DNA from: Candidatus Onthousia excrementipullorum
GTDB lineage: Bacteria > Bacillota_I > Bacilli_A > RF39 > UBA660
Direction: 5' to 3'
Assembly: GCA_018712385.1 (NCBI GenBank)
Contig: DVHC01000003.1
Span: 1-54,201 of the forward strand
Length of the DNA: 54,201 bases
In this document: in pieces, positions 24,163 to 26,516 of the stretch
Layout of the letters: each line of letters opens with the position of its first letter
Position numbering within the stretch: position 1 is the stretch's first letter
The notes under the pieces: model-generated
What the model saw: the letters and a program-made list of their open reading frames with translations, nothing else
What the model was told of the DNA's origin: nothing
Databases searched by the model: none
Position numbers and translations under genes: made by a program

Positions 24163-24879
24163 ATGGAAAGATTACAAAAAGTAATAGCGAATGCAGGAAT
24201 TGCCTCAAGACGTAAAGCTGAAGAACTAATTAAAGAGGGTAGAGTAACTGTTAATGGTGCAACAGTTACTGAATTAGGTACTAAAGTAACTAATAAAGAT
24301 ATAATTAAAGTAGATGGTAAACAAATTGAAAAAGAAAAAAAAGTTTATTATCTACTTAATAAACCAAGAGGAATAATAACAAGTGTTACTGATGATAAGG
24401 AAAGAAAGACTGTAGTTGATTTAATTCCTTGTCATGAAAGAATTTATCCTGTAGGCAGACTTGATTATGATACAACAGGAGTATTATTACTTACTAATGA
24501 TGGAGAGTTCGCCAATATCTTAATGCATCCAAATGATAAAGTTGAGAAAGTATATATCGTTAAAGTTAAAGGTATTATTAAAGGAAATGCCATTAATACT
24601 ATTAAAAACGGTGTTACAGTAGATGGTATAAGTTATGAGAGAGCTAAAGTTAAGTTAAGAAAAACAGATTATAAGACTAATACTTCTATGCTTACAGTTA
24701 CTATTCATGAAGGACGTAATCATGAAGTTAAGAAGATGTTTGAAGCAGTAGGTTTTAAAGTCCTAAAATTAAGAAGAGAGCGAGAATTTATCTTTGATTT
24801 AAAAGGCCTAAAGAGTGGAGAATATAGAAAACTAACCCCTAAAGAAGTCGCTATAGTCTATAGTTTAGAAAAAAAATAA
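24163..24879 (+). CDS. rluB: 23S rRNA pseudouridine synthase RluB
   Basis: MERLQK S4 domain; GRLDYDTTG; EGRNHEVK. Confidence 0.92.
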   Translation: MERLQKVIANAGIASRRKAEELIKEGRVTVNGATVTELGTKVTNKDIIKVDGKQIEKEKKVYYLLNKPRGIITSVTDDKERKTVVDLIPCHERIYPVGRLDYDTTGVLLLTNDGEFANILMHPNDKVEKVYIVKVKGIIKGNAINTIKNGVTVDGISYERAKVKLRKTDYKTNTSMLTVTIHEGRNHEVKKMFEAVGFKVLKLRREREFIFDLKGLKSGEYRKLTPKEVAIVYSLEKK

Positions 24880-24945
24880 GAGCACATTCGCTCTTTTTAA
24901 TTTTATACTTTTAACGATTTTGGTGTTTACACCAAAATCGTAATT
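24870..24945 (+). repeat. Left copy of a 76-bp direct repeat (rluB end + terminator + palindrome A)
   Basis: 70/76 identical to 25912-25987; contains ACGATTTTGGTGT-TT-ACACCAAAATCGT (24914-24941). Confidence 0.92.
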
Positions 24946-24962
24946 TAATTGATTACCAGTTT

Positions 24963-25787
24963 TTATGCTTCAAGTCTATTTTGTCGTTCTTTTTCAAGTT
25001 CCTTTATAGATTTCTTAGGAGTAGGTAAATCTTCTGGCATAGTACCCCCTAATTTTTTAATAGTCTCTCTAATCGCTTTGCCGACTTTATAATGTGTATC
25101 TGTTGCCATATTTTCATTAGGTTTTTCTTGCTTTTCAAGTAAAGCTTCCGTTTGAGTTATTCTAAATACATTAGCACCTAATTCAACACTTCCCATATTA
25201 TCTAATATATCTTCTCTATATCTTAAGCCTTTTCTCTTAGCAATATCATTTGCAGTTTCACCATTATATAAGCCTTTATATCCAGCATTAGTAAACTTAT
25301 CAAAGTTCTTTACACCTTTTTCTTTAGCAATTCTATATAAAACTTTATTACCATCTTTAGTTTGCTTTCTTCTATATAACCGTTTTTCATCTTCGCTTAA
25401 CTTTTCATATTCTTCTTCAGTTAGCTCCATTTTTCTAGTTTGTACTGCAAAATAAGTTTGGCCTAAGGCAACATTTTTATACCTAGGATTAGCATTTTGA
25501 ACTATTAAATAACAAGCATATCTGCTTAATTTATAATCAATAATTGCCTTAGAAGAAACACCAGTTTTTACTATTTTGGTGTTTACACCAAAATTGGCAT
25601 TAATATTATTGTTACTTTGAGAGCAAGCAACTTGTGCTTTTTCTATAACGGCAGAAAAGTATCTCCATTCCTTATAACCTAGTATTTGCTGTAATTCTCT
25701 AGCATACCAATATTCATTACCATTATCATCAACATGCTTAATTTCTTCAAAAGTCATTTTTTCATATTTTTCTAATTCTTTAGTCAT
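24963..25787 (-). CDS. dinD: DNA-damage-inducible protein D (Bro-N domain)
   Basis: EYWYAREL, LSRYACYLIVQN, QTYFAVQTR, GYKGLY, ILDNMGSVEL, GGTMPEDLP. Confidence 0.9.
   Translation of the reverse strand: MTKELEKYEKMTFEEIKHVDDNGNEYWYARELQQILGYKEWRYFSAVIEKAQVACSQSNNNINANFGVNTKIVKTGVSSKAIIDYKLSRYACYLIVQNANPRYKNVALGQTYFAVQTRKMELTEEEYEKLSEDEKRLYRRKQTKDGNKVLYRIAKEKGVKNFDKFTNAGYKGLYNGETANDIAKRKGLRYREDILDNMGSVELGANVFRITQTEALLEKQEKPNENMATDTHYKVGKAIRETIKKLGGTMPEDLPTPKKSIKELEKERQNRLEA
25573..25594. repeat. Intragenic palindrome B, spanning the codons for dinD F66-K71
   Basis: ATTTTGGTGT-TT-ACACCAAAAT. Confidence 0.92.
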
Positions 25788-25826
25788 AACACAAACCTCC
25801 TATCTTTGACTAATATAATTACCTAT

Positions 25827-25860
25827 TTATAGAAAAGTTATATCAGTAGCTTTTCTATAA
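25827..25860. promoter_or_regulatory. Hairpin upstream of the dinD start
   Basis: TTATAGAAAAGTTA-tatcag-TAGCTTTTCTATAA, 13/14-bp arms. Confidence 0.5.
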
Positions 25861-25911
25861 CATTTATACATATAGTGTAGCATACATTTGTTCAGAAGTA
25901 TACAAAAAACT

Positions 25912-25987
25912 AAAAAAATAAAAGCACATTCGCTCTTTTTAATTATATACCTTTTACTATTTTGGTGTTTACACCAAAATAGTAATT
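25912..25987 (+). repeat. Right copy of the 76-bp direct repeat with palindrome C
   Basis: TTACTATTTTGGTGT-TT-ACACCAAAATAGTAA (25954-25985), 15-bp arms. Confidence 0.92.
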
Positions 25988-26090
25988 AACTACAATGTTT
26001 GTTTTCTTATTATATATAATCTATTTAATCGTTCCCTTAATTATTGGCTTCTAGGCATCAGCAAAATGGTTAAAGAGGTTGTTAGTATAA

Positions 26091-26162
26091 CAGTTTTTAC
26101 TATTTTGGTGTAAACACCAAAATAGTAATTAATCGCATTATTACTTCTGGAATAAGCAACTT
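26091..26162 (-). repeat. Silent partial dinD copy containing palindrome D (centre inverted)
   Basis: 58/72 gap-free identity to 25562-25633; reads VAYSRSNNAINYYFGVYTKIVKT versus gene VACSQSNNNINANFGVNTKIVKT. Confidence 0.88.
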
Positions 26163-26240
26163 AAGTCTATATATTATTTAAAAGTATACAAAAAGAAGCC
26201 CATAAATAAAGCTTCTTTTACATTTATTATTTTATCAAGA

Positions 26241-26516
<276 letters not shown>

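What the first reader, a model, noticed from the sequence alone, without database searches (positions are those of the whole stretch)
24870..26162. dinD locus: a palindrome that encodes part of the DNA-binding domain is repeated three times around its own gene as variant silent fragments
Seen: the core ATTTTGGTGT-NN-ACACCAAAAT occurs four times in 1.3 kb and I saw it nowhere else in the window. Copy A is at 24914-24941 (13-bp arms), B at 25573-25594 inside dinD, C at 25954-25985 and D at 26097-26128 (both 15-bp arms). In the gene the axis falls exactly between codons (ttt ggt gta | aac acc aaa = F66-G-V-N-T-K71), so the element is frame-symmetric. Read on the gene strand, all extragenic copies translate as variants of the same segment: gene SNNNINANFGVNTKIVKT; A TGNQLNYDFGVNTKIVKS (I and V codons changed synonymously); C TNIVVNYYFGVNTKIVK; D SNNAINYYFGVYTKIVKT. 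Known: DinD carries a Bro-N-type nucleic-acid-binding domain; from recollection its HFxxxxKMV segment varies between homologues. Inference, with three competing models: (i) a self-referential regulator whose binding site is the DNA encoding part of its own binding domain, with the copies acting as operators; (ii) silent cassettes that diversify this segment by gene conversion or hairpin inversion; (iii) scars of a palindrome-mediated single-gene mobility mechanism. I know of no description of such a system.
Basis: partly seen in the sequence, partly recalled or inferred. Interest (0 to 1): 0.9.

Follow-up and report, generated by a model that had tools for sequence, protein, structure and literature searches.

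The report
Self-maintaining palindrome inside dinD genes
The four palindromes are real: the one inside dinD belongs to a coding palindrome that DinD-type genes of many bacteria and phages keep at the same spot with different sequences, and the three outside the gene are leftovers of rearrangements at that palindrome, not matched operator sites.

Summary
The 22-nt core occurs four times, at the stated places and nowhere else in the 1.5-Mb genome.

The main result goes beyond the finding. In 102 of 109 distinct DinD genes, the DNA encoding the D-H-F-x4-K-M-V segment is a 13+2+13 palindrome with its axis at the same codon boundary. Its sequence differs between alleles. Complementarity is kept by paired changes that alter amino acids, such as HF..KM, QL..KL and WL..KP. 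E. coli dinD, dinD of other phyla and high-GC phage antirepressors with the same N-domain also have it. Classical Bro-N genes do not.

Extra flanking copies are lineage-specific: 5 of 118 loci have them. They do not co-vary with the resident allele, as G067 shows. Relatives show clean palindrome-to-palindrome deletions, central TT/AA flips and longer arms in non-coding copies.

Best reading: a coding inverted repeat kept perfect by polymerase template switching, with the extragenic copies as rearrangement scars (confidence about 0.5). A selected hairpin, cruciform or protein-binding function is not excluded (about 0.3). The self-referential operator model fails its own test.

The parts
24163..24879 (+). 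Pseudouridine synthase gene (RluB/RsuA type), the left chromosomal neighbour
   Evidence: S4 domain plus PseudoU_synth_2 (E 4.6e-26). It is conserved next to the ferredoxin gene in all 52 genomes of the genus that were searched.
24878..24895 (.). Bidirectional terminator hairpin shared by the synthase gene and dinD. It is the left part of the 76-nt repeat.
   Evidence: scores it as terminator-like on both strands. It is present in state-0 genomes that lack any palindrome, so it is chromosomal and not part of the insert.
24914..24941 (.). Palindrome copy A. It is non-coding, has 13-nt arms and centre TT, and lies between the dinD stop codon and the terminator.
   Evidence: I12. The ssDNA hairpin energy is -12.2 kcal/mol, z -5.7. 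Its left arm is the complement of a K-I-V arm of the ATC GTA type, as found in the G024 gene.
24963..25787 (-). dinD gene, 274 aa. It has a DinD-type Bro-N N-domain and a helical C-domain.
   Evidence: The AF2 model has pLDDT 86.5. The fold resembles DdrC.
25570..25597 (-). Palindrome copy B: the family-wide 13+2+13 coding element. Here it has 10 perfect pairs at 25573-25594 and encodes N65-F-G-V-N-T-K-I72, with the axis between codons 68 and 69.
   Evidence: The hairpin energy is -7.1 kcal/mol. In the protein model it covers the short helix 62-65 and the first half of strand 66-75, not a turn.
25788..25911 (-). dinD upstream (promoter) region, with its own 14-nt inverted repeat at 25827-25840/25847-25860
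   Evidence: I10. The distal 21 nt (25888-25908) recur at 26174-26194 (D5), which marks the second, degraded unit.
25912..25987 (.). Second copy of the 76-nt unit: a degenerate terminator copy plus palindrome C (25954-25985, 15-nt arms, centre TT)
   Evidence: D2, 92% identity; I8. The hairpin energy is -12.0 kcal/mol.
25986..26096 (.). 111-nt spacer between C and D, of unknown origin
   Evidence: It has the same orientation relative to its flanks in all 6 genomes that have it. Logan contigs cannot fix its orientation, because it is bounded by identical 32-mers (records 5-7). On the minus strand it has a weak match to dinD nt 387-428, reached by 3 of 500 shuffles.
26097..26128 (.). Palindrome copy D: 15-nt arms, centre AA, the exact reverse complement of C
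   Evidence: I2, I9. The hairpin energy is -12.0 kcal/mol.
26129..26203 (-). dinD pseudogene remnant next to D (about codons 37-65, with stops)
   Evidence: (D1, 81% over 72 nt), (E 6e-8 to residues 37-78). It is orthologous in 14 copies across the genus.
26241..26498 (-). Ferredoxin gene, the right chromosomal neighbour, with its terminator at 26191-26219
   Evidence: State-0 genomes share it only from window position 26281 onwards.

Best explanation
dinD and other genes with the DinD-type N-domain carry a 28-bp coding inverted repeat: 13-nt arms around a free 2-nt centre, with the axis between codons 68 and 69 of the window protein.

Inferred mechanism: DNA polymerase template switching between the arms keeps the repeat perfect. 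A point change in one arm is either erased or copied into the other arm, so complementarity persists while the sequence, and with it the encoded amino acids, drifts. The same process flips the 2-nt centre and lengthens the arms where no protein constraint resists it.

Because it is a palindrome, it is also a preferred site of breakage and mis-alignment. In the window's lineage this produced a partial tandem duplication of the dinD unit and truncated copies. Copies A, C and D are the palindromes of those remnants. They now act as short repeats between which dinD or parts of it are deleted.

Shown: the family-wide covarying palindrome, the centre flips, the arm extension in non-coding copies, the clean palindrome-to-palindrome deletions, and the lack of co-variation between flank copies and the resident allele.

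Inferred: template switching as the maintaining force, and the order of events that created the 76-nt duplication.
For: (1) Position-conserved, sequence-variable palindrome.
- in 109 distinct genes the motif axis has at least 10 of 14 pairs in 102. Among 77,518 other axes in the same genes, 63 reach 10.
- The motif axis is the single best axis of the gene in 97 of 109.
- The axis lies between codons in 114 of 118 HSPs.

(2) Pairing profile (102 sequences).
- The centre pair is Watson-Crick in 24%, against a chance value of 27%.
- Positions 2-14 are paired in 80-98%.
- Positions 15-20 are paired in 10-42%.

(3) Covariation.
- 91.1% of cells are paired against 71.9% in shuffles (0 of 500 reach the observed value).
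- 264 double-change cells against 74 expected.
- 12 of 13 pairs show changes on both sides.
- Slid controls give 33-50% pairing.

(4) Codon-level complementarity (106 sequences).
- Exact reverse-complement codon pairs: codons 67/70 in 77 of 106 (14 kinds), 66/71 in 84 of 106, and 65/72 in 65 of 106 (CAT/ATG, TGG/CCA, CAA/TTG, CAC/GTG, TGT/ACA, GAT/ATC).
- The amino acids therefore change in complementary pairs.

(5) Breadth.
- E. coli K-12 has 12 of 13 pairs.
- 12 of 17 distant loci reach at least 10 of 13, where the maximum elsewhere in those genes is 8-9.
- Actinophage antirepressors at 65-68% GC keep TTT/AAA and CAA/TTG.

(6) Signatures of template switching, as described in PMC8604942 (passages read) and PMC5941160 (passages read).
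- The centre is only TT (10) or AA (4) in 14 orthologous copies.
- The centre is flipped between the G000 and G024 genes, which are 93% identical.
- CC and GG centres occur on identical arms.
- Perfect arms are 12-15 nt in 16 of 18 non-coding copies, against 10 nt in 5 of 5 coding copies of the same allele.
- Independent fragments in L124 and L086 also have 15-nt arms.

(7) No sense-strand RNA signature. Within the stem, G.T mismatches number 29 and A.C mismatches 53 on the coding strand (summed).

(8) Scars.
- The solo palindrome of G022 has a left flank identical (45 of 45) to copy A of G071 and a right flank identical (45 of 45) to copy D of G071.
- G030, G032 and G062 have B joined to downstream copies.
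- G024 has C and D merged.
- G019 has a new head-to-head palindrome.

(9) Intact genes without the palindrome exist: 7 of 109 score below 10, as do Thiothrix and Parabacteroides. The palindrome is therefore dispensable for the gene.
Against: - The palindrome persists across at least 5 phyla and in phages, and it holds rare codons in high-GC genomes. That fits selection at least as well as mutational drive.
- The pair next to the 2-nt centre is kept in 94% of sequences, with 3 pair types. Only the inter-molecular form of template switching explains this.
- The inner arm is G+C-rich in genes of about 30% G+C.
- In 14 orthologous non-coding copies the 20 core nt differ by 1.3% while the adjoining remnant differs by 18.8%. 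By my own reasoning, unbiased arm-to-arm copying should not slow sequence change. This needs either constraint, or exchange with the protein-constrained coding copy. The authors of PMC8604942 do report that such repeats are more conserved than their surroundings.
- No templated event was observed directly. The only runs available were contigs, which hide minor variants.
- The origin of the 76-nt duplication is not resolved.
Confidence: 0.5

Rival explanations
1. The palindrome is a selected cis-acting DNA element: a hairpin in single-stranded DNA, a cruciform, or a symmetric site for a dimeric protein. It would be embedded in the gene so that gene and site travel together. The non-coding copies would be kept because they still work, for example as protein-binding or recombination sites.
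For: - It is conserved family-wide, including rare TTT/AAA/CAA/TTG codons at 65-68% GC.
- Pairing runs right up to the central dinucleotide, and the inner arm is G+C-rich.
- Hairpins are stable: -7 to -12 kcal/mol, z -3.5 to -7.
- The core is about 14 times more conserved than its flank in 14 non-coding copies.
- The arms of non-coding copies are longer and perfect.
- The protein is a predicted winged-helix plus helical-bundle fold like the DNA-break-binding dimer DdrC.
Against: - No function can be assigned.
- Several intact genes have lost the palindrome.
- The solo copies are recent deletion products, so their conservation is weak evidence.
- Extra copies are absent from 113 of 118 loci.
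- There is no recombinase nearby.
- The variable inner arm argues against one common sequence-specific binder.
Confidence: 0.3
2. The palindromes are the joints of a one-gene cassette. dinD, together with the copied terminator, is excised as a circle and re-inserted by recombination between palindrome copies, so that empty (solo) and filled loci interconvert.
For: - dinD is bracketed by a 76-nt direct repeat ending in the palindrome (D2).
- Six loci carry one solo palindrome with copy A's left flank and copy D's right flank. One of them is flank-identical to a filled locus of another species.
- Ten further loci have neither gene nor palindrome.
Against: - Only the deletion direction is documented.
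- The repeat includes chromosomal sequence (the neighbour's stop codon and terminator). That points to tandem duplication or homologous exchange rather than a site-specific insertion.
- No recombinase gene lies near.
- The arrangement is confined to one lineage.
- The contigs examined show no circle junction, but contigs cannot show rare forms.
Confidence: 0.1
3. The stem-loop acts in the sense mRNA, controlling translation, decay or processing of the dinD message.
For: Base pairing covaries. Some mismatches are G.T on the coding strand.
Against: - A.C mismatches on the coding strand (53) outnumber G.T (29) within the stem.
- The pair beside a 2-nt loop is kept, although it cannot form in RNA.
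- Non-transcribed or pseudogene copies stay perfect and grow.
- No Rfam family matches. The 2 hits have E 0.34 and 0.37, far below their gathering scores, and lie at copy A.
Confidence: 0.05
4. One reading: DinD binds the DNA that encodes part of its own binding domain, and the flanking copies are cognate operators.
For: The palindrome lies in the Bro-N domain, at the first strand of the predicted wing hairpin. Each allele has its own inner sequence.
Against: - Flank copies do not co-vary with the resident allele (G067).
- 113 of 118 loci have no second copy.
- Solo copies occur in genomes where no close relative of this allele was found in the 5 of 6 that were searched.
- The axis is not at a protein symmetry point.
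- The segment is the most variable stretch of an otherwise 68-70% conserved protein.
Confidence: 0.03

Closest known systems
Short inverted repeats homogenised by polymerase template switching (Ripley model; yeast coding genes, PMC8604942, passages read; Proteobacteria, PMC5941160, passages read)
   Same: - The arms are kept identical through multinucleotide changes.
[quoted passage not shown]
- The changes replace amino acids.
- The repeats are more conserved than their surroundings.
   Different: Those are recent events, or non-coding repeats within one clade. Here a single repeat sits at one codon boundary of one protein family and persists across phyla and phages, with many alternative sequences. 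It dictates which amino-acid pairs can occur.
[quoted passage not shown]
   Same: Perfect inverted repeats lie inside functional protein-coding genes, and both arms encode protein. Protein function and DNA secondary structure are preserved together.
   Different: Those are many long repeats (up to 284 bp) in one organelle lineage. They are not a single short, position-fixed element that covaries across a gene family.
Initiator genes that contain their own cis site, such as rolling-circle Rep genes with the origin inside the coding sequence (recalled, no call)
   Same: A cis-acting DNA structure lies inside the gene of a DNA-binding protein, so gene and site are inherited together.
   Different: No nicking or replication function is known or predicted for DinD. 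No HUH or Rep motif was found.
Crossover sites of serine invertases and resolvases: two roughly 12-13 bp inverted half-sites around a 2-bp centre, sometimes inside coding sequence (recalled, no call)
   Same: The geometry is 13+2+13 with an asymmetric central dinucleotide that occurs in both orientations. Deletions occur between copies.
   Different: - No recombinase gene is nearby.
- Each allele has a different sequence.
- The 111-nt segment between the inverted copies C and D has the same orientation in all 6 genomes that have it.
- The weak TnpX match of DinD is spurious.
Palindromic repeat elements that are dispersed or inserted in frame, such as REP elements and Rickettsia palindromic elements (recalled, no call)
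   Same: Palindromic DNA is tolerated inside or beside genes.
   Different: The element is not dispersed. The genome has four copies, all at this locus.

Membership tests
DinD (NCBIfam NF008573, DNA damage-inducible protein D) | Whole-protein score above the curated cut-off of the equivalog model | tested here: met
   321.5 bits against a cut-off of 242, covering residues 1-270 of 274.
DinD (NCBIfam NF008573, DNA damage-inducible protein D) | N-terminal Bro-N domain | tested here: met
   PF02498, 38.5 bits against a cut-off of 25.6, residues 15-105.
DinD (NCBIfam NF008573, DNA damage-inducible protein D) | SOS (LexA) control of expression | not tested
   I did not search for a LexA box, and no expression data were available.
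Inverted repeat maintained by template switching | The arms stay complementary through changes on both sides | tested here: met
   12 of 13 pairs have double changes, and the covariation score is 0.495 against 0.163 in shuffles. One search adds the codon-pair counts.
Inverted repeat maintained by template switching | Inversion of the spacer between close relatives while the arms stay unchanged | tested here: met
   The centre is TT or AA only in 14 orthologous copies. It is flipped between the G000 and G024 genes.
Inverted repeat maintained by template switching | The arms expand where they are unconstrained | tested here: met
   16 of 18 non-coding copies have 12-15-nt arms, against 10 nt in 5 of 5 coding copies. 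L124 and L086 fragments have 15-nt arms.
Inverted repeat maintained by template switching | A measured rate of templated correction above the point-mutation rate | not testable with these tools
   This needs a reversion assay or raw-read population data. Only contigs were available.
   5 of 118 loci have a second copy; in G067 the flank copies do not match the gene's palindrome.
Invertase-driven shufflon or phase switch | A recombinase gene at the locus, and alternative orientations of the bounded segment | tested here: not met
   the neighbours are a synthase, a ferredoxin, a HAD hydrolase, a sulfatase-domain protein, three proteins with no Pfam match, and a long ORF that I read as PolC from its sequence alone; the spacer has the same orientation in 6 of 6 genomes.
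Known structured RNA (Rfam) | A match reaching the family's gathering score | tested here: not met
   there are only 2 sub-threshold matches (27.2 bits against 48.7, and 19.1 against 75).
Dispersed palindromic repeat (REP- or MITE-like) | Many copies spread over the genome | tested here: not met
   4 copies, all within 1.3 kb.
Serine recombinase catalytic domain in DinD | A beta-alpha-beta catalytic fold with a conserved nucleophilic serine | tested here: not met
   the TnpX match has E 0.033 and covers 48 residues; that region is helical; the aligned residue is S, T, D or R.

The most novel reading that the evidence does not exclude
The palindrome is a working partner of the protein. DinD-type proteins, predicted here to share the fold of the DNA-break sensor DdrC, would recognise the hairpin or cruciform formed by their own coding sequence. 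Each gene would then be a self-contained protein-plus-site unit. The unit could regulate itself, or could promote palindrome-to-palindrome excision and re-insertion. That would make dinD, and the related antirepressor N-domain genes, a minimal self-mobilising or self-sensing element.
Probability: 0.12. Interest if true: 0.9.

Novelty: new variant of a known kind. Interest (0 to 1): 0.72.

Why it matters
If the main reading holds, this is a clear natural case of DNA-level symmetry steering protein evolution over long times. Which amino acids may occupy about ten positions of a widespread bacterial and phage domain would be set by reverse-complement codon pairing, not by protein function alone.

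It gives a family-wide, testable system that includes E. coli K-12 dinD. It can be used to measure how fast template switching corrects short repeats, and whether that alone can hold a palindrome for such a span.

It also explains three things about dinD genes: why they are so often found truncated at one spot, why that segment is hypervariable, and why small dinD-like fragments litter some loci.

If the palindrome instead proves functional, it would be a new kind of cis element hidden in a DNA-damage-inducible gene and in phage antirepressors.

I found no description of it. Searches returned nothing relevant among the titles and abstracts listed. Supplements were not consulted.

Tried and rejected
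- **Serine-recombinase lead.** The DinD profile hits TnpX at E 0.033. I rejected it: the region is helical in the model, and the would-be catalytic serine is S, T, D or R.
- **Inverted dinD remnant in the C-D spacer.** The tblastn hint (E 0.002) rests mostly on the palindrome itself. Nucleotide alignment of the plus strand scores at the null mean. The minus strand has a weak match (3 of 500 shuffles), which I leave unexplained.
- **Inversion of the 111-nt spacer between species.** Not seen: the orientation is the same in 6 of 6 genomes.
- **Population heterogeneity (TT/AA flips, circles, inversions).** All 23 runs offered are kept as contigs. The four I laid (X1, X7, X10, X13) show contigs breaking at the palindromes and joints that belong to relatives with empty, solo or truncated loci. 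They cannot show minor variants, so this is neither support nor refutation.
- **Sense-RNA hairpin.** There is no excess of G.T mismatches on the coding strand and no Rfam family match.
- **Protein-symmetry explanation.** The axis lies inside a beta strand, not at the hairpin turn.
- **Classical Bro-N genes of the same genome as further members.** None has a palindrome: the maximum is 8-9 of 13 pairs. The feature is therefore limited to the DinD-type N-domain.
- **Core conservation in solo copies as proof of function.** This is weakened because at least one solo locus is a recent deletion product.
- **Tools and sources not used.** Supplementary files were not consulted. They might hold lists of coding inverted repeats for PMC5941160 and PMC8604942.


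Full report
**1. The observation**

The pattern ATTTTGGTGTNNACACCAAAAT occurs four times in the window, at 24917, 25573, 25959 and 26102. None is expected in 100 shuffles.

The perfect arms are 13 nt for copy A, 10 nt for copy B, and 15 nt for copies C and D. The whole assembly (1.50 Mb, 75 contigs, 90.69% complete) holds no other copy.

Copy B lies in a 274-aa ORF at 24963-25787 on the minus strand. That ORF is a DinD equivalog (NF008573, 321.5 bits against a cut-off of 242) with a Bro-N domain. The axis falls between codons 68 and 69 of F66-G-V-N-T-K71.

**2. Local anatomy**

The neighbours are housekeeping genes: a pseudouridine synthase on the left and a ferredoxin on the right. No recombinase is in the surroundings.

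Two features were not in the finding.

- Positions 24870-24945 are repeated at 25912-25987 with 92% identity over 76 nt. This repeat comprises the last bases of the synthase gene, its bidirectional terminator and the palindrome. dinD is therefore bracketed by a direct repeat that includes chromosomal sequence.
- Copy D and its right flank are a dinD pseudogene piece. The piece is 81% identical to the gene over 72 nt and aligns to residues about 37-78, with stops. It is followed by a 21-nt copy of the distal dinD upstream region (D5).

The simplest description is two dinD units in tandem, the second heavily deleted. Copies C and D are exact reverse complements, 111 nt apart.

**3. The locus in relatives**

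I searched 52 genomes of the genus with the region and cut out the interval between the two neighbour genes in 24 of the 30 loci returned.

| State | Loci | Interval | Content |
|---|---|---|---|
| Empty | 10 | 48-125 nt | terminator only, no palindrome |
| Solo | 6 | 229-249 nt | one palindrome, with copy A's left flank and copy D's right flank |
| Filled or rearranged | 8 | 745-1477 nt | dinD or parts of it |

The solo locus of G022 is identical, 45 of 45 nt on each side, to the left flank of copy A and the right flank of copy D of G071. This is a clean palindrome-to-palindrome deletion that removed dinD.

Other rearrangements are also seen:

- In G030, G032 and G062, copy B is joined to downstream copies, so the 5' part and the promoter are lost.
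- In G024, copies C and D are merged.
- G019 has a new head-to-head palindrome made of an arm plus its flank.

The 111-nt spacer has the same orientation in all 6 genomes that have it.

**4. The unexpected general result**

The data set is 118 tblastn matches from:

- the genus;
- other genera and families of the class;
- 80 further contigs;
- E. coli K-12.

These gave 109 distinct sequences.

The main counts are:

- The motif axis has at least 10 of 14 Watson-Crick pairs in 102 of 109 sequences. Of 77,518 other axes in the same genes, only 63 reach 10.
- It is the single best axis of the gene in 97 of 109. It lies between codons in 114 of 118.
- Pairing is at chance for the central pair (24% against 27%). 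It is 80-98% for positions 2 to 14, and falls to 10-42% beyond. The element is thus 13+2+13 = 28 bp.
- The pair-counting tool gives 91.1% paired cells against 71.9% in shuffles (0 of 500). It finds 264 double-change cells against 74, and changes on both sides at 12 of 13 pairs. Slid controls give 33-50%. That alignment was centred by my own axis search and its rows are related, so the numbers lean towards the structure, but the margin is wide.

At the codon level the complementary partners change the protein together. Examples are CAT/ATG (H..M), CAA/TTG (Q..L), TGG/CCA (W..P), CAC/GTG (H..V), GAT/ATC (D..I), TTT/AAA (F..K), CTT/AAG (L..K) and TTC/GAA (F..E). There are 14 different complementary pairs at codons 67/70. 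Protein-level selection alone cannot produce this.

**5. Breadth and limits**

- E. coli dinD has 12 of 13 pairs at the same boundary.
- Of 17 distant loci, 12 reach at least 10 of 13, while the maximum elsewhere in those genes is 8-9. The 12 are:
  - dinD of Streptococcus, Neisseria, Klebsiella, Zymomonas and E. coli;
  - four dinD genes of Bacteroidota (two Bernardetia, Flammeovirgaceae, Chondrinema b);
  - two cyanobacterial BRO genes;
  - one actinobacterial KilAC antirepressor gene.
- Thiothrix, Parabacteroides, one Chondrinema copy, RhuM and a Corynebacterium gene do not reach 10.
- Four of five actinophage antirepressors at 65-68% G+C have 10-11 pairs. They keep TTT, AAA, CAA and TTG, which I recall as rare codons in such genomes.
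- In one cyanobacterial gene the loop has five residues and the axis falls inside a codon. This is further evidence that the constraint is on nucleotides.
- Three classical Bro-N genes of the window's own genome have no such palindrome, with a maximum of 8-9.

The feature therefore marks the DinD-type N-domain, not Bro-N in general.

**6. What the flanking copies are not**

Only 5 of 118 loci have a second copy of the resident core within about 1.5 kb. Three of these are the window's own lineage. The other two (L124, L021), and also L086, show dinD genes or fragments nearby. In L124 and L086 these are N-terminal fragments ending at palindromes with 15-nt arms.

In G067 the gene at this very locus is a mosaic. 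Its nucleotides about 90-330, including the palindrome, come from another allele, yet the flanking copies remain of the window's type.

Co-variation of flank copies with the resident allele, which model (i) requires, is thus refuted.

**7. Which molecule?**

- Within the stem, coding-strand G.T mismatches number 29 and A.C mismatches 53. There is no sense-RNA wobble signature.
- No Rfam family fits.
- As single-stranded DNA the four copies fold at -12.2, -7.1, -12.0 and -12.0 kcal/mol, with z from -3.5 to -7.
- In the AlphaFold model (pLDDT 86.5) the palindrome encodes a short helix (62-65) and the first half of strand 66-75 of a wing-like hairpin. The axis is not at the turn, so protein symmetry is not the cause.

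**8. Mechanism**

Polymerase template switching between the arms of short inverted repeats is known to homogenise arms, expand them and invert short spacers. It does so in coding sequence too, and with arms above 9 bp (PMC8604942 and PMC5941160, passages read).

All three signatures are present here:

- Compensated arms (sections 4 and 5).
- Centre flips. The centre is only TT (10) or AA (4) in 14 orthologous copies. It is flipped between the 93%-identical genes of G000 and G024, changing N69 to Y69. CC and GG centres occur on identical arms.
- Arm growth where protein constraint is absent. 16 of 18 non-coding copies have 12-15-nt arms, against 10 nt in 5 of 5 coding copies.

I therefore favour a self-maintaining coding palindrome, whose fragility also explains the truncations, duplications and deletions at this locus.

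Four observations pull towards selection:

- the great phylogenetic span;
- the pair next to the centre, kept in 94% of sequences;
- the G+C-rich inner arms;
- a core that differs by 1.3% where the adjoining remnant differs by 18.8%.

Exchange with the protein-constrained coding copy, and the youth of the solo loci, can account for the last point but are not shown. I put the mutational reading at about 0.5 and a selected DNA-level function at about 0.3.

**9. Comparison with known systems**

The nearest described phenomena are template-switch homogenisation of short repeats and the coding palindromes of Nematomorpha mitochondria (PMC6649704, abstract read).

The geometry recalls serine-recombinase sites and initiator genes that contain their own origin. 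Both comparisons are recalled, not tested. No recombinase is present, and the weak TnpX similarity is spurious.

I found no paper describing a palindrome in dinD or in antirepressor coding sequence. Searches were judged from the listings only.

**10. Verdict**

- The real interest lies in the family-wide covarying coding palindrome, which appears to be undescribed and can be tested directly in E. coli K-12.

Noticed in passing
window 24963-25787 (protein model m9730d1c4df0a): Over its full length, the DinD model resembles the Deinococcus DNA-break-binding dimer DdrC (8u0g_B, Foldseek E 2e-5, probability 1.00, TM 0.38-0.46). The two DdrC papers listed show 0 occurrences of 'DinD'.
   Followed up: partly
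L086:1-2600 and L124:1289-2648: These gut Bacilli contigs carry tandem arrays of two or more dinD genes plus N-terminal fragments. The fragments end at palindromes whose arms have grown to 14-15 nt.
   Followed up: partly
L044 interval positions 355-384 (G019): A new perfect palindrome has formed from one arm plus its flank joined head to head with its own reverse complement. This suggests fold-back synthesis at the old palindrome.
   Followed up: no
L039 (G067), dinD nt about 90-330: The dinD gene is a mosaic. It is 95-100% identical to the window gene outside this patch and 50-70% identical inside it. The patch brings in a different palindrome. G024 shows a milder dip in identity at the same place.
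   Followed up: partly
window 25827-25860: A 14-nt inverted repeat with a 6-nt gap lies in the dinD upstream region (I10). It is unrelated to the palindrome family and is a more conventional candidate operator.
   Followed up: no
window 24963-25787: The protein matches the PADLOC candidate defence family PDC-S13 (E 1e-96) and the first 267 positions of a 717-position type I specificity-subunit model. DinD-like domains therefore occur fused to HsdS.
   Followed up: no
window 26241-26280: Genomes with the empty locus share the ferredoxin gene only from window position 26281 onwards. The event that brought in dinD therefore also replaced about the last 13 codons and the terminator of the ferredoxin gene.
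   Followed up: no
L187 (record labelled UNVERIFIED Campylobacter phage A18a): This record holds a dinD stretch whose motif region is letter-identical to that of E. coli K-12. It is probably foreign DNA in that record.
   Followed up: no
window 25986-26096: On the minus strand, the 111-nt spacer between C and D has a weak match to dinD nt 387-428, reached by 3 of 500 shuffles. Its origin is unexplained. Logan contigs cannot fix its orientation, because it is bounded by identical 32-mers.
   Followed up: partly
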